NCBI RefSeq assembly: GCF_024223415.1
Contig: NZ_CP100500.1
From: Escherichia coli
GTDB taxonomy: Bacteria; Pseudomonadota; Gammaproteobacteria; Enterobacterales; Enterobacteriaceae
Reading direction: 5' to 3' (one strand)
DNA length: 64,000 bases
Each line of letters opens with the position of its first letter. Within the stretch, counting starts at the first letter, position 1. Shown piece after piece: positions 9,001-15,000 of the stretch. Made by a program: the position numbers.

Positions 9001-12000
9001 ATCCATCGCCCCATAATATAACCCTTTGTTTTAAAATTACATAAAATCTATTTTTATTCAATGATTATAAAGTGCTAATAATCAATATTATGGTATTATA
9101 TTCTGATAATGATTTGATAAGCGAATTCTTTTACCAGACGGTATTTCTATTTCCACCCCATAATTTATATCTTTTTCATCAGGAAGTGGCCTCTTTAAAT
9201 AAGGCGTGCGTGACATTTTTTTGGGTTAAGCGTCTCGTATTGAAATACTTCGAATTGATATTCAGACATTTCTGCCCATGTTTGAATTTTATTGTATCGG
9301 GAGAGTGTCGTAAAGGCTTTAACTTGCTTATAACATTGTTTTTGGAATTCTTGCTGATATTTTAATATGTCGTTGTATGAAAGATTGGTTATCCTGGCCT
9401 CTAAAAATTTAATTATTGTCGAAGCAATTTCCGCTTTTGCTCGTAAAAAGTTGTCATTAATGGTTAATAATGTTGAAAATAAACCTTCGATTTGTTTGTC
9501 AAGATATTGTTCGTCTTTATATAATTTTGGGGTAGGGTGTTCTTTATGTGAAAAAATAGTGTCACCTAAATTTGCGTCAGTGAAATTTATATTAAGTAGA
9601 TCTTCGAAATAAAACCTTGACAAGGTTAGAACGAACCCGGACAGGTTCTGTCCTGTCATATTGAAATCAATAAAGTTGGTTCCGGCAAAGACTTTCATCC
9701 TGTTTTTATTTTCACTGTGCTCAATATATAACTTCGTCATTTTTTGATACAGGCTTTGAATATCTTTTATATTAGTCGGTAAGTCAGCTCGTTGTTCAGC
9801 AATAAAATTAGTATCTGAAAACATGGTTTGGACACTGAATATTACTGGTATTCCCTCTTCTACGCTAATTTTAGTTATGATTGCCTTGTCGGGTTTAGGA
9901 TTAGCGACAACAATGATTCGACATTCAGCACTTTTGTTCTTTTCGTATCTAATGTTATTAATTTGATTAAGTATTTCCTGTGCCTGCCGCGTAAGTGGTG
10001 TCGAACTTATCGATTCAATGTTAGTAATAAGACTTACAAGTTGAGCCACAACTTTTGAGTAGTCTGCATCTGTATATTTGGTGTTCGTGCGGCACGCATA
10101 AATTTGTGGGAGGTGTTGCCGCGCTAAATCATATTGTTCAGGGTTGTATCCTTCTCCAGAGAATGTGGAATTAATGGGTTGTTGTTCTTCCCGATTATCA
10201 CAAGGCCACATCGGTGTGTCTGGTGTTTTAACATTGTCGGTATCTGTTGTGCGGTTATAAATATCGCCGTGATATGTATTTATCATACCTGGGGTAAAGT
10301 CAATTGACATAACATTCCTTATTCATCATCTGTTTTATGCTAAGATTTTTAAATTGGATAATTAGAGCAGGAATGGATTTTCTTCTACGCACAATAAATA
10401 TCATGCGTCATATCTTCCTGATATAATTACCTTTGACTTCCCTTTTATCTCCACCCGGTAATATTTGTGTATAAAAAAGGGCATTGATAGTATCGTAAAG
10501 GAAAACGTTAACAACTATCAAAAAGCGCTCATTTTAAAAAGTTATGATGTTCTCCGATAGTGTGTGAAATGATATTTTTGTGATGTTTTAGATGTGTAAT
10601 AATGAACCAGGTTAAAGTGTATTTAAAAATGTGTTGTATTAGCGACTGAAATCTGCCTTTTAAAAAGGAGGAGGGTACTGAGACAAAGAGATATTGCTTC
10701 TCCGATAAAATGTAAGAGAAGCATGATTGCGTGGTTATTGTTTGTTGATGACTTGCTGACCGAGCCGTCATCATTCTCAATGCATTAGTTAAATTATTTG
10801 TGATTTTTAAGGATTATCCTGTCTATGATTTTCTACTTAGAAGGATATGGCACTAACTATGCATCTTATAGTTTACTGTTGGCATCTATTTAAAATAGCA
10901 TTTGAGTCAAATAGCCCATCAAGATAGCCATACCTAATATAACGGTCAGGAATGCAGCTATCATCGGCATTCTGAACATTGATTTAAGCAATATCACTTC
11001 CGTCAAACTTGCTCCGGCACTGCCGATGATTAATGCCATTAATGCTCCCAGACCCATTCCTTTGGTCATCAAAACAGATGCCAGAGGGATAACTGCCTCT
11101 GCCCGGATATATAGCGGAATACCAACAACGGCGCTCAATGGGATGGCGAAGGGATTATCTGCCCCTGCATGAGCGGCAATCCACGCTGAGGGAATAAAGC
11201 CATAAATAAAAGAGCCTATTAATACCCCTAACAAAAGATATGGCAGTACATCTTTAAACTGTTGCAACGCATCTTTGGTGGCTAGTTTTATGGGATTAAT
11301 ACTTACCACAGTTTTGGTATTGCAACAGTTAACTACGGGTTTCTCAATGGCTTTAGCCGTTGGACTACAGCAACTCACTTCTATTGGCGTATATGTCGTC
11401 CCCGGCAAAGTTTTTGCCGACGCTTTGGCTGGAGCACAACAATTTGCTGATGAGCTTTTACTGGCAATGATATGACGTTCAAACCCCAGAGAATCCAGGA
11501 TAATACTGGCAAGAACGGAGACGCCGGTGGCGATAATCGCGTACAACAAGGTGACTTTCCAACCAAAGGTCACCCACATTAGTCCGACGATAATGGGATT
11601 AAGTAATGGTGAAACAAATAAAAAAGTGAGAGTCGGACCAAACCCGGCTTTCGCTGACAACAATCCACGTAGCATGGGTATTGTCGAGCAACTACAGAAC
11701 GGGGTAACGGCTCCCAACAGAGCAGCCAGGAGATAGCCTCTCCCTTTTCTCGCCCCCATCATCTGCTGGATTTTATGGTCTGGCACCTTTTGTCTTATCA
11801 GGCTGACACCGGCACTAATCACTATAAACAGCAAAGAAAGCTCGACGGCAAGAAACACAAACATCTCTGCGGCATCTTGCAGCATCGCAAGCCAATTACT
11901 CATACGTAACCTCGTTGAATAAATCTATATTTCCAGAATAATCGAAATGAAATTCAGATCAAGATATTTCTGGTATTATCGAAATATCAACCAGACAGAG

Positions 12001-15000
12001 GGGGGTCATATGCAGTTGGAAGAAGTCGCTAAAGCGCTGAAAGAGCTAGGTCACCCGACCCGTTTGTTCATATTTAAACATCTTGTCAAAGCCGGGGAAC
12101 AAGGGTTGCCGGTCGGTGAGTTGCAAAAGCAGCTTGGGATACCTGGCTCCACACTCAGCCACCATATATCAGCACTGGTATCGGTAGGACTGGTCAAACA
12201 AAACCGTGAGAGTCGGACGCTGATGTGTGTTTCGCAATACGCAATGCTGGAAGCGATAATTGAATTCTTATGCGAGGAGTGCTGCGTAAATAGCAAAATT
12301 GCCTGATGCGTTACGCTCTACATATTTCATGCCATATATTGGATTTGCACGGTTTTGTAGGTCGGATAAGACGCGTTAGCGTCGCATCCGACATAAACAA
12401 AGCGCACTTTACCAACTATCGGCAGTGGATATCGCCGCTTTATTTCAGGCGCTTACCCGCTTCATCAACCACTTTCTCGCCATCTTCCTTGGAGAATGCG
12501 CCTTTTTGCGCATCTGGCAGAATTTCCAGCACCACTTCTGAAGGGCGGCACAGGCGAGTTCCCAGCGTCGTCACCACAATCGGGCGATTAATCAGAATCG
12601 GGTGCTGAAGCATAAAGTCGATTAACCGATCGTCAGTAAATTTATCTTCCGCAAGGCCCAGCTCCTCATACGGTTCGACGTTTTTACGCAGCAGCGCGCG
12701 TACGGAAATCCCCATATCGGCAATGAGTTTGACCAGTTCATCGCGCGTTGGCGGAGTTTCCAGATAATGGATAATGGTCGGTTCTGTACCGCTGTTGCGG
12801 ATCATCTCCAGCGTATTACGCGATGTGCCGCAGGCCGGGTTGTGATAAATGGTAATGTTGCTCATATCAGTATCTCATTACAAAGTGAAAGAGAGACGTA
12901 GCGCCAGCGCAGCCAGCGTCACAAACAGCACAGGCAGGGTCATGATAATCCCTGTACGGAAGTAATATCCCCAGCTGATAGTCATATTCTTCTGCGAAAG
13001 TACGTGCAGCCAGAGCAGCGTTGCCAGGCTACCAATCGGGGTGATTTTCGGCCCCAAATCGCAGCCAATCACGTTGGCATAAACCATCGCTTCTTTGATA
13101 ACGCCAGATGCCGTGCTGCCATCAATGGACAACGCGCCAACCAGTACCGTCGGCATATTGTTCATAATAGAAGAGAGGAAGGCGGTGAGGAATCCGGTGC
13201 CGAGCGTCGCGGCCCACAGGCCGTTATCCGCCAGCACGTTGAGTACGCCAGAAAGATATTCCGTTAGTCCGGCATTGCGCAGGCCATAAACCACCAGATA
13301 CATGCCGAGCGAGAAGATGACAATCTGCCAGGGCGCACCGCGCAGCACTTTACCCGTATTAATCGCATGACCGCGTTTAGCGACGACAAATAATATCAAC
13401 GCGCCCACTGCCGCAATGGCGCTGACCGGAATGCCGAGCGGTTCCAGGACGAAAAATCCCACCAGCAGAAGCAGTAAAACAACCCAGCCAGTTTTGAACG
13501 TAGCAGGATCTTTAATCGCTTCTGCGGGAGATTTCAGCAGCGCCATGTCGTAGTTCTGCGGAATATCTTTGCGGAAATAGAGATGCAACATCACCAGCGT
13601 GGCAACAATCGCGGCGATATCCACCGGCACCATCACCGAGGCATATTCGCGAAAGCCGAGGCCAAAGAAATCTGCGGAAACGATATTCACCAGGTTGGAG
13701 ACAATAAGCGGCAGGCTGGCGGTATCGGCAATGAATCCGGCCGCCATCACAAACGCCAGCGTAGTGCCTTTACTGAACCCTAAAGCCAGCAGCATGGCGA
13801 TGACAATCGGTGTCAAAATAAGCGCCGCGCCATCATTGGCAAACAGGGCGGCAACGGCAGCACCGAGCAGGACAATCCAGGTAAACAGCAAGCGACCGCG
13901 TCCATTGCCCCAGCGTGAAACGTGCAGTGCCGCCCATTCAAAAAAGCCGGACTCATCCAGCAGCAGGCTGATGATAATAACGGCAATAAACGCAGCCGTC
14001 GCGTTCCAGACGATATTCCACACCACCGGAATATCACCCGGATGGACCACGCCCGTAACTAACGCCAGTACTGCGCCGAGCGTTGCACTCCAGCCGATGC
14101 CTAAACCTTTCGGCTGCCAGATAACCAATACAATGGTCAGGACAAAGATAGCGCCTGCCAGTAACATAATGCCTCCTGGATAAAACACATGCGAAAATAC
14201 ATATGTGTTTAGCTAAATTTTTTAACTGCAAATGTTCTTACTGTCTACGGAACAATTTTGTCGGGCCAGGTTGCGGACAATCACCTGAACCTTTTCCTGT
14301 TCACATCGCCAGGCCTCATCAATAATTTTCGCCGCCCATACTGGAATATGTGGCGATAGGCGGTAATGAACCCACTTACCTTGCTTGCGGTCCAGCAATA
14401 GCCCGCTTTCACGCAGTAATGCCAGATGGCGGGATATCTTGGGCTGCGACTGATCGAGGGCAGTGCAGAGATCGCAGACGCATAACTCTCCCAGTTCGCT
14501 AAGCAGTAAAACGATGCCCAGACGGGTTTCATCAGCAAGAATTTTGAAGAGTTGGATGGGTAACAGAAATGACATATTACGCTCCTGATTGCTGCAGGTA
14601 GTGTCTCTCTTCGAAGCGGATAAGTCAAAAACATATATGGTTTAACGAATGCGTGTGTGCAGAGGAAGGTAATAGGTGTGAATTTTGAGTTGGCTATTCA
14701 TTTGAAAGGAGGTCTGAATCAGGACGTAAAAAAACCGACTTTGCGTCGGTTTTTTACTTTCCAGCCCAGAGTTGGTGGCTCTGGCTGGAGTGAGAATGCC
14801 ATCATCTAACGCATCAATGCTAATACCATACTGAAACTATTGCAAGGACATGCTGGTTTTATAACCTGAATATACTGTATGATTATCCAGTTGGCTCTGA
14901 GGCATTTTCACTCTGGCAATGCGCATAAACGCTTTCAAAGTCCTGATCAGTGGTACGGGTGGTGCCGTTAACTGATGCTCTGGCCGGAGTGAGAATGCCA

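What the first reader, a model, noticed from the sequence alone, without database searches (positions are those of the whole stretch)
10890..12306. Extra ArsR-family regulator and ArsP-like permease with vicinal-cysteine loop next to arsRBC
Beside the canonical arsR-arsB-arsC operon there is a divergently arranged pair. One is a 98-aa ArsR/SmtB regulator ending in CEECC. The other is a 337-aa DUF318/ArsP-like permease with the TPFCSCS motif (reported for organoarsenical efflux permeases) and a loop with three CC pairs (CCAPAK, SCCSPTAK, NCCNTK). Vicinal thiols are classic As(III)/soft-metal ligands. The pair could extend resistance to methylarsenite, roxarsone or a thiophilic metal. I do not recall this pair adjacent to ars in K-12.
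Basis: partly seen in the sequence, partly recalled or inferred. Interest (0 to 1): 0.5.

Follow-up and report, generated by a model that had tools for sequence, protein, structure and literature searches.

The report
Second arsenic sensor and pump pair
Next to the standard arsenic-resistance genes, this E. coli carries a self-contained repressor-plus-export-pump pair whose closest studied relative senses methylated arsenic; it is real, common in E. coli, lost from the K-12 lab strain, and already named in the literature.

Summary
A 337-aa PF03773/ArsP_1 permease (10890-11903, -) and a 98-aa ArsR/SmtB regulator (12010-12306, +) lie divergently beside arsRBC. The regulator gene is on the chromosome of 2,236 of 5,426 complete E. 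coli genomes. K-12 lost the pair through a 1.6-kb deletion that left a decayed stub of the regulator gene.

The regulator is 58% identical, without gaps, to Shewanella putrefaciens SpArsR, described in the literature as methylarsenite-selective. Its vicinal Cys91-Cys92 align with SpArsR Cys101-Cys102. The 106-bp intergenic region holds two pseudo-palindromes that are invariant from E. coli to Aeromonas and recur in the S. putrefaciens arsP promoter.

Close homologues on Salmonella islands and enterobacterial plasmids sit next to arsH and arsDA. Published work already writes the E. coli locus as 'ArsRBCRP'.

Best reading: an autoregulated sensor and efflux module for trivalent organoarsenicals. 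This rests on homology only.

- Cys88 of 'CEECC' is a single-base variant private to this window. The usual motif is REECC.
- TPFCSCS is found across the whole superfamily, including Cu/Zn exporters, so it does not indicate an arsenic substrate.
- The Cys-rich loop is family-wide but hypervariable in length and sequence.

Novelty is low.

The parts
10890..11903 (-). arsP-like permease CDS (337 aa plus stop), PF03773/ArsP_1
   Evidence: ORF. Pfam E=6.8e-53. PGAP 'permease' WP_000073501.1 in the closest genome. AF2 model has pLDDT 85 and pTM 0.80.
11685..11705 (-). TPFCSCS motif (residues 67-73; Cys70 and Cys72), the only cysteines outside the loop
   Evidence: Invariant in 59 aligned homologues. 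Every one of 89 homologues has at least two cysteines outside the loop, and nearly all have exactly two. In the AF2 model it lies in the coil between helices 52-66 and 71-83. [quoted passage not shown]
11277..11471 (-). Cys-rich hydrophilic central loop (residues 145-209) with three CC pairs; predicted disordered
   Evidence: pLDDT is below 50 for residues 155-193. The loop is 27-108 aa long in 89 homologues, with a median of 7 Cys and almost no His. Non-synonymous changes outnumber synonymous ones here, unlike in the core. No DNA tandem repeat was found.
11904..12009 (.). Divergent control region (106 bp), spacing conserved across genera
   Evidence: The spacer is 105-106 bp in Salmonella, Aeromonas and plasmid copies. 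Promoter-like hexamers lie at 11915-11942 (+) and 11990-11961 (-).
11927..11948 (.). Putative operator site 1 (ATTTCGATTATTCTGGAAAT on the - strand), overlapping the regulator promoter
   Evidence: 5 matches against 0.03 expected in the window; 4 are these two sites counted on both strands. Largely conserved in alignment A2.
11963..11988 (.). Putative operator site 2 (GATATTTC-N10-GAAATATC), lying between the -35 and -10 of the permease promoter
   Evidence: Near-identical sequence in the S. putrefaciens arsP promoter. The motif sits within about 100 nt (up to about 215 nt in a few) upstream of the permease gene in about 36 of the 38 other loci that carry it.
12010..12306 (+). SpArsR-type ArsR/SmtB repressor CDS (98 aa plus stop)
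   Evidence: Best PDB relative is AfArsR 6J05, E=4e-10. 58% identical to SpArsR. AF2 pLDDT 93 with a winged-helix fold.
12280..12285 (+). Codons for Cys91-Cys92, the vicinal pair at the C-terminal end of helix alpha5 (predicted ligand site)
   Evidence: Aligned with AfArsR Cys95-96 and SpArsR Cys101-102. 100% conserved in 63 orthologues. Helix 77-91 in the model.
12271..12273 (+). Codon 88, TGC (Cys) here but CGC (Arg) in other E. coli: a private single-base variant
12226..12228 (+). Codon for Cys73 (wing beta-strand), invariant in orthologues; role unknown
   Evidence: Aligns with SpArsR Cys83.
10650..12236 (.). Segment missing from K-12 (a 1,587-bp deletion). K-12 keeps a decayed copy of 12237-12306.
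12440..14575 (-). Adjacent canonical arsR (14222-14575), arsB (12878-14167) and arsC (12440-12865)

Best explanation
The pair is a self-contained, autoregulated sensor and efflux module of the arsR-arsP kind, most likely for trivalent organoarsenicals (methylarsenite, and reduced roxarsone or phenylarsenicals).

Proposed mechanism:
1. Without inducer, the dimeric winged-helix repressor binds two pseudo-palindromic operators that overlap the two back-to-back promoters. This shuts off both its own gene and the permease gene. The sequence layout is shown; binding is inferred.
2. A trivalent arsenical with two free valencies binds the vicinal Cys91-Cys92 thiols at the end of helix alpha5 in the dimerisation domain. 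This releases the repressor. The step is inferred from orthology to SpArsR and AfArsR.
3. The permease exports the compound using the intramembrane Cys70-x-Cys72 site. Transport is probably driven by the membrane potential, through an elevator-type movement (inferred from the family and from a predicted ArsB/DASS-like fold).
4. The disordered cytosolic loop, with its vicinal-thiol pairs, probably captures substrate and hands it to the transport site, much like the CC pairs of ArsD. This step is speculative.

The adjacent arsRBC operon handles inorganic arsenic independently. No operator of this type lies upstream of arsR.
For: Regulator:
- Best PDB relative is AfArsR, with its Cys95-96 aligned to the CC pair.
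- 58% identity over 92 residues without gaps to SpArsR, reconstructed from the published construct. CC aligns with Cys101-102.

Operator:
- Two sites are found only in this spacer.
- They are largely unchanged in Salmonella, plasmids and Aeromonas.
- They recur in the S. putrefaciens arsP promoter and upstream of the permease in dozens of loci.

Module conservation: an orthologous regulator lies in 63 of the 79 loci with a permease ORF, next to the permease in most.

Arsenic context:
- E. coli chromosome beside arsRBC.
- Salmonella arsRDABC-arsH-reg-permease.
- Plasmids arsA-arsD-sigma-arsH-reg-permease.
- Buttiauxella, Shewanella hafniensis, Halomonas, Marinobacterium and Endozoicomonas, the last as arsR-acr3-arsD-arsA-permease-reg on one strand.

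Prior naming: arsP-arsR in the R64 ars2-type cluster (PMC6449608) and 'ArsRBCRP' in E. coli ST2747 (PMC5718612).

Selection: strong purifying selection on both genes.
Against: - No protein of this clade has been assayed. The only characterised ArsP, from C. jejuni, is a distant relative: epsilonproteobacterial homologues are 27-34% identical.
- I could not place the permease in a tree with C. jejuni ArsP and SO_0444.
- Other PF03773 members are Cu/Zn exporters.
- Only 7-8 of 80 more distant loci have ars genes within 10 kb. That is enriched over chance but far from universal.
- Cys73 is invariant but has no role in the two-cysteine model.
- 24 of 63 orthologous regulators carry a third Cys after the pair, so ligand range may differ within the family.
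- The SpArsR sequence was reconstructed from machine-read PDF text, with about three residues imputed.
Confidence: 0.6

Rival explanations
1. Soft-metal cation exporter (Zn, Cd, Cu(I) or Hg) with its own thiol-based ArsR/SmtB sensor, like the SO_0444/Shew_3410 branch of the same Pfam family. On this view the position next to ars genes reflects clustering of metal-resistance genes in general.
For: The nearest curated NCBIfam model is the SO_0444 Cu/Zn efflux family (E=6e-31). Shew_3410 (arsP/DUF318) matters for zinc stress. The CSC motif is shared. The Cys-rich loop is a typical soft-metal ligand set. Most distant loci have no ars genes nearby. A plasmid copy lies a few kb from pcoA.
Against: The score of 108 bits is far below the family cut-off of 300. 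Per, Shew_3410 sits beside a zinc-responsive regulator ZntR, whereas here the partner is an SpArsR orthologue with a conserved operator. A two-thiol vicinal site is unusual for Zn/Cd sensors. The loop has no His. The immediate neighbours in mobile islands are arsH and arsDA.
Confidence: 0.13
2. Back-up or higher-capacity system for inorganic As(III)/Sb(III). The permease exports arsenite (with ArsA where arsDA is adjacent), and the regulator senses As(III) through three thiols.
Against: According to the literature read, SpArsR does not respond to As(III) and C. jejuni ArsP does not export it. The common E. coli allele has only the CC pair plus the distant Cys73. E. coli already has ArsB at the same locus.
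Confidence: 0.15
3. Thiol-redox or reactive-sulfur sensor and exporter, in the manner of BigR/YgaV. Cys73 and the CC pair would form disulfide or persulfide links, and the permease would export a sulfur compound.
For: BigR (3pqj) and YgaV (3cuo) are the second and third PDB relatives. Cys73 is invariant but unexplained. TauE/SafE-type genes lie in some plasmid islands. Another PF03773 subfamily pairs with a thioredoxin-family protein.
Against: The BigR model scores 39 bits against a cut-off of 155. The experimentally studied orthologue is an arsenical sensor. TauE is not adjacent to the pair.
Confidence: 0.05

Closest known systems
Shewanella putrefaciens 200 SpArsR (Sput200_1227) and arsP (Sput200_1226)
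   Same: Adjacent regulator-permease pair. Regulator 58% identical without gaps, with the CC pair aligned to Cys101-102, Cys73 aligned to Cys83, and no Cys after the pair. The operator half-sites ATTTC...GAAAT are nearly identical. The S. hafniensis locus L041, whose regulator is 91% identical to SpArsR, has a permease 50% identical to the E. coli one and a Cys-rich loop.
   Different: The E. coli spacer is 106 bp with two close sites, while the Shewanella promoter fragment is longer with sites about 90 bp apart. This window's allele has an extra Cys88. The E. coli pair abuts arsRBC directly.
Campylobacter jejuni ArsP (methylarsenite/roxarsone(III) efflux permease)
   Same: Same Pfam family (ArsP_1). 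Cys-x-Cys in an early membrane segment. Encoded in an ars gene cluster.
   Different: Only about 27-34% identity to epsilonproteobacterial homologues. The E. coli protein belongs to the type with a hydrophilic insertion between TMS4 and TMS5, noted in PMC2963123. From memory, C. jejuni ArsP is about 315 aa, which would make it the short type.
[quoted passage not shown]
   Same: The same gene pair in the same divergent arrangement with the same operators. Plasmid permeases are 75-80% identical and regulators 93% identical. Strain ST2747, named in PMC5718612, carries this very locus.
   Different: Plasmid regulators have a 9-10-residue longer C-terminal tail, and plasmid loops are 20-40 residues longer. 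The chromosomal locus lacks arsH, the sigma factor and arsDA.
Acidithiobacillus ferrooxidans AfArsR (PDB 6J05), type 2 As(III) site
   Same: Best solved-structure relative. The vicinal Cys pair is at the end of alpha5.
   Different: AfArsR uses a third Cys (Cys102) after the pair. The E. coli family allele has none, and this window has one before the pair instead.
SO_0444 family Cu/Zn efflux transporters and SaoE (NCBIfam NF033936, NF040736)
   Same: Same superfamily, full-length alignment and CSC motif.
   Different: Scores are 108 and 85 bits against cut-offs of 300 and 325. The partner regulator type differs.

Membership tests
Pfam PF03773 (ArsP_1 / DUF318 permeases) | Significant full-length match to the family HMM | tested here: met
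   E=6.8e-53, model positions 3-293 of 294.
ArsP organoarsenical efflux permease (C. jejuni type) | Cys-x-Cys pair in an early membrane segment | tested here: met
   C70 and C72 in TPFCSCS, invariant. The motif is not discriminating, because it is also in SO_0444 and SaoE.
ArsP organoarsenical efflux permease (C. jejuni type) | Encoded within or beside ars genes | tested here: met
   Beside arsRBC here. Beside arsH/arsDA/arsRDABC in Salmonella and on plasmids. Within an acr3-arsDA operon in Endozoicomonas. Only 7-8 of 80 distant loci show this.
ArsP organoarsenical efflux permease (C. jejuni type) | Groups with characterised ArsP rather than with Cu/Zn exporters in a phylogeny | not tested
   The C. 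jejuni ArsP and SO_0444 sequences could not be obtained with the tools. The only indirect figures are 27-34% identity to epsilonproteobacterial homologues and 108 bits to the SO_0444 model.
ArsP organoarsenical efflux permease (C. jejuni type) | Exports MAs(III)/Rox(III) and confers resistance | not testable with these tools
   Needs MIC and transport assays.
SpArsR-type (MAs(III)-selective) ArsR repressor | ArsR/SmtB winged-helix fold | tested here: met
   NF033788 61 bits against a cut-off of 55. HTH_20. AF2 gives alpha1-alpha4, a beta-hairpin and alpha5 at pLDDT 93.
SpArsR-type (MAs(III)-selective) ArsR repressor | Vicinal Cys pair at the C-terminal end of alpha5, aligned with SpArsR Cys101-102 / AfArsR Cys95-96 | tested here: met
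SpArsR-type (MAs(III)-selective) ArsR repressor | No third ligand cysteine near the pair (two-coordinate site) | tested here: inconclusive
   The common E. coli allele (REECC, WP_001175589.1) meets this. This window has Cys88, three residues before the pair. Cys73 is invariant, and its distance from the pair in the dimer is unknown.
SpArsR-type (MAs(III)-selective) ArsR repressor | Adjacent to an arsP gene whose promoter carries its operator | tested here: met
   Divergent pair with two conserved pseudo-palindromes shared with the S. putrefaciens arsP promoter. Binding itself was not tested.
SpArsR-type (MAs(III)-selective) ArsR repressor | Derepression by MAs(III) but not As(III) | not testable with these tools
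   Needs a reporter or DNA-binding assay.
R773/E. coli chromosomal ArsR (type 1 site) | Cys32-x-Cys34-x2-Cys37 in the DNA-binding region | tested here: not met
   Aligned positions are LPVGELQ, against LCVCDLC in the neighbouring ArsR. Overall identity is 25%.
SO_0444 family Cu/Zn efflux transporter (NF033936) | Score at or above the curated cut-off of 300 bits | tested here: not met
   107.9 bits.
SaoE efflux transporter (NF040736) | Score at or above the curated cut-off of 325 bits | tested here: not met
   85.2 bits.
BigR sulfite/sulfide-sensing repressor (NF040642) | Score at or above the curated cut-off of 155 bits | tested here: not met
   39 bits.

The most novel reading that the evidence does not exclude
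In this clade the permease may be more than a proton-driven organoarsenical exporter. It would be a compact, ArsB-like elevator transporter whose hypervariable vicinal-thiol loop acts as a built-in ArsD-like relay, and where arsDA is adjacent it could be the membrane partner of the ArsA ATPase. That would widen its range to inorganic As(III). In this particular strain, the private R88C change would add a third thiol one helical turn from the sensing pair. This could turn a methylarsenite-selective repressor into one that also answers to arsenite, a natural version of what I recall (from memory, paper not held) was done by mutagenesis in SpArsR.
Probability: 0.12. Interest if true: 0.55.

Novelty: already known. 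Interest (0 to 1): 0.22.

Why it matters
Practical value is modest. About 41% of complete E. coli genomes and several hundred enterobacterial plasmids, many from poultry and pigs, carry a probable resistance module for trivalent organoarsenicals that RefSeq labels only 'permease' and 'ArsR/SmtB family transcription factor'. Resistome surveys may therefore under-count it.

The module could matter in two settings. One is farms where arsenical feed additives were used. The other is guts where neighbouring microbes methylate arsenic.

K-12 is a natural null. That makes it a clean host for the decisive assays and for SpArsR-based methylarsenite biosensors. Wild E. coli hosts would bring a cross-reacting repressor and operator.

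No member of the long-loop ArsP type has been studied biochemically. The role of the Cys-rich loop and of the invariant Cys73 is open.

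Tried and rejected
- The original ArsP paper (PMID 26234817 / PMC4681449) is not held. I did not request the SpArsR paper itself; its claims are taken from later papers that cite it.
- I could not obtain the C. jejuni ArsP or SO_0444 sequences, so no discriminating phylogeny was built.
- A PDB sequence search with the permease found nothing.
- Tandem Repeats Finder on the loop DNA found nothing, so the loop is not a recent DNA repeat expansion in E. coli.
- BLASTP of the N-terminal half against the C-terminal half of the permease was not significant (E=6.8). 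An internal duplication is therefore suggested only by the model's helix pattern.
- My first screen for ars neighbours used only ArsB/C/H/A/D/R seeds and missed Acr3 clusters. It was corrected after annotating L044. LMW-phosphatase ArsC, ArsM and ArsI were never screened, so the ars-linkage count is a lower bound.
- I first assumed from shared protein accessions that 'CEECC' was the standard E. coli allele. Translating the loci showed it is not.
- The profile search of PDB with alignment A5 is biased, because A5 contains the AfArsR fragment. Only the single-sequence result is used as evidence.
- Pseudogene or relic status is rejected on the basis of purifying selection.

Full report
WHAT IS THERE

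The window is E. coli chromosome. The gene order is chuS, dctR, slp, a yhiS-like ORF, the permease (10890-11903, - strand), the regulator (12010-12306, + strand), arsC, arsB, arsR, gor, rlmJ. Both ORFs of the finding are real. PGAP annotates them in the closest complete genomes as 'permease' (337 aa) and 'ArsR/SmtB family transcription factor' (98 aa).

The permease matches Pfam ArsP_1 (PF03773) over its full length, E=6.8e-53. TPFCSCS is at residues 67-73. The three CC pairs are at residues 155-156, 178-179 and 193-194, and there are no other cysteines. The regulator matches HTH_20/HTH_5 and passes the NCBIfam ArsR/SmtB subfamily cut-off.

DISTRIBUTION AND HISTORY

- The regulator gene is on the chromosome of 2,236 of 5,426 complete E. 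coli genomes, one copy each. The whole 2-kb segment is in 2,223.
- K-12 lacks window 10650-12236. It still carries a diverged copy of 12237-12306, the last 23 codons of the regulator gene. The pair is therefore ancestral at this site and K-12 lost it by deletion.
- Both genes are under purifying selection. The regulator shows 13 synonymous against 1 non-synonymous codon differences versus strain ST2747. The permease core shows 27 against 5 within E. coli and 135 against 39 versus Aeromonas.

1. The 'CEECC' string. Across 2,041 bp the window differs from its closest genomes at one base, T at 12271 where they have C. This turns Arg88 into Cys. A 55-mer centred on that base finds no match in any complete E. 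coli genome. The best match to the regulator gene is one mismatch away. In 63 orthologues position 88 is never Cys, whereas Cys73, Cys91 and Cys92 are invariant. The family motif is therefore [Q/R]-[D/E]-E-C-C. Cys88 is private to this sequence, either a real mutation or a sequencing error.

2. TPFCSCS. The CSC core is the most conserved motif between the SO_0444 Cu/Zn efflux family and SaoE (preprint 10.1101/2022.07.06.499078). It marks the superfamily, not organoarsenical specificity.

3. The Cys-rich loop. It is a family trait, not a peculiarity of this gene.
- Nearly all of the 89 homologues have exactly the two CSC cysteines outside the loop; the rest have one or two more.
- The central loop is 27-108 residues long, with 1-10 Cys (median 7) and almost no His.
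- Its length and sequence are hypervariable even within E. coli, and non-synonymous changes outnumber synonymous ones there.
- AlphaFold predicts it to be disordered.
- This matches the 'hydrophilic insertion between TMS4 and 5' type of ArsP noted in 2010 (PMC2963123).

THE REGULATOR AND ITS OPERATOR

The best solved-structure relative is A. ferrooxidans ArsR (6J05, E=4e-10). Its As(III) ligands Cys95-96 align with Cys91-92. An AF2 model (pLDDT 93) places Cys88 and Cys91 in helix alpha5 (residues 77-91), Cys92 just after it, and Cys73 in the wing.

The literature describes a sub-type, SpArsR of S. putrefaciens 200. It has only the vicinal pair Cys101-102 and lacks AfArsR's third cysteine. [quoted passage not shown] It controls the promoter of the adjacent arsP gene, Sput200_1226 (PMC12124457).

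The supplement of that last paper prints the construct. The SpArsR protein translated from it is 58% identical to the E. coli regulator over 92 residues with no gap. About three residues had to be imputed where the PDF text dropped bases. CC aligns with Cys101-102 and Cys73 with Cys83.

The 106-bp E. coli spacer holds two pseudo-palindromes, at 11927-11948 and 11963-11988.
- They overlap sigma-70-like hexamers for each gene.
- The motif ATTTCnnTWATnnnnGAAAT occurs nowhere else in the window apart from one one-mismatch hit at 3876. Four of the five matches are these two sites counted on both strands, against 0.03 expected.
- The sites are essentially unchanged in Salmonella, three plasmids and Aeromonas, with the same spacer length.
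- Site 2 is almost identical to a sequence in the S. putrefaciens arsP promoter.
- The motif sits just upstream of the permease gene in dozens of other loci.
- No such site lies upstream of arsR in the window, so no cross-control of arsRBC is predicted.

GENOMIC CONTEXT ELSEWHERE

- Salmonella chromosomal islands: arsR-arsD-arsA-arsB-arsC-arsH-regulator-permease.
- IncI and IncF plasmids: arsA-arsD-sigma factor-arsH-regulator-permease. In pVM01 the pair stands alone between IS1 and a Tn3-family transposase gene.
- About 640 plasmids carry a copy at 60-90% protein identity, mostly from E. coli and Salmonella.
- Aeromonas: the pair stands alone.
- A scan of one genome per species returned 80 loci at about 50% identity, mainly Vibrio, Shewanella and Photobacterium. 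An orthologous regulator lies in 63 of the 79 loci with a permease ORF, next to the permease in most.
- Only 7-8 of the 80 have ars genes within 10 kb: Buttiauxella, S. hafniensis, Halomonas, Marinobacterium and three Endozoicomonas. Endozoicomonas has arsR-acr3-arsD-arsA-permease-regulator on one strand.
- By a rough estimate, a random locus would lie within 10 kb of an ars operon well under 1% of the time. The link is therefore enriched but not general. The conserved unit is the two-gene module.

THE PERMEASE FOLD

The CSC motif lies in a short coil between helices 52-66 and 71-83. That is the kind of hairpin tip that binds substrate in those families. This is an inference from a predicted model. 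I found no paper that makes this link.

INTERPRETATION

The best-supported reading is an autoregulated arsR-arsP module for trivalent organoarsenicals, confidence about 0.6. It is very likely, about 0.9, that this is at least an autoregulated efflux module for some thiol-seeking metalloid or metal.

Shown by sequence:
- the gene pair itself;
- the operators and promoters;
- the conserved thiols;
- orthology to SpArsR;
- the arsenic-island context.

Inferred:
- DNA binding and its release by arsenicals;
- the exported substrate;
- the energy source;
- the role of the loop.

Rivals are a soft-metal exporter like SO_0444 (0.13), an inorganic As(III) system possibly coupled to ArsA (0.15), and a redox or sulfur sensor (0.05).

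NOVELTY

[quoted passage not shown] The E. coli chromosomal arrangement has been published as 'ArsRBCRP' for strain ST2747 (PMC5718612), a strain that carries this locus. The kind is therefore known and this locus has been named, although nobody appears to have tested it.

What this analysis adds is incremental:
- the K-12 deletion scar;
- the shared operator;
- the private R88C variant;
- the family-wide but hypervariable thiol loop;
- the ArsB/DASS-like predicted fold.

Noticed in passing
L029 8886-9485; L009 6208-6753; L004 357-899: A SigZ-like ECF sigma factor ending in a vicinal Cys pair (for example ...VCCHKKMN, ...EECCHLS...) lies next to the regulator-permease module in 12 Vibrio loci. 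It also lies inside plasmid ars2-type clusters between arsD and arsH. It may be a thiol-sensing sigma factor.
   Followed up: partly
[not shown]
   Followed up: partly
L044 5845-11388: Endozoicomonas elysicola has arsR-acr3-arsD-arsA-(ArsP-like permease)-(SpArsR-like regulator), all on one strand. This is a tighter ars linkage than in E. coli, and here the regulator lies downstream rather than divergent.
   Followed up: partly
window 12226-12228 (Cys73): Cys73, in the wing beta-strand of the regulator, is invariant in 63 orthologues and aligns with SpArsR Cys83. The papers read name only the CC pair as ligand, so its role is unexplained.
   Followed up: no
window 12358-12393: A REP-like palindrome (TAGGTCGGATAAGACGCGTTAGCGTCGCATCCGACA) lies between the convergent regulator gene and arsC.
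   Followed up: no
window 14726-14809 (-): The AgrB antisense sRNA (Rfam RF02891, 107 bits) lies between arsR and gor. Only one Agr copy reached the Rfam threshold, whereas K-12 is annotated with both agrA and agrB.
   Followed up: no
window 9195-10310 (-): The yhiS-like ORF is intact here (371 aa, no NCBIfam family). It is split by IS5 in K-12 and marked frameshifted in strain NCTC10444.
   Followed up: no
supplement of PMC12124457 (Nd-ars-gBlock): The Noviherbaspirillum denitrificans arsRM promoter contains a similar ATTTC...GAAAT palindrome (TTGACATTTCCAGTATTTTGAAATATCG). The operator type may therefore be shared more widely among C-terminal-Cys ArsR repressors.
   Followed up: no
AFDB hits A0AB36PK37, A0A0I0R8U0, A0A376M2I0: Shigella flexneri, S. 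sonnei and one E. coli entry carry truncated versions (223-257 aa) of this permease at 94-95% identity. This suggests pseudogenisation in some lineages.
   Followed up: no
L097 4053-5997; L096 4563-6023: Other PF03773 subfamilies occur on enterobacterial plasmids. One (about 32% identity) is arranged as sigma-70 factor, permease, thioredoxin-family protein. Another (about 48% identity) is again a divergent small HTH regulator plus permease.
   Followed up: partly
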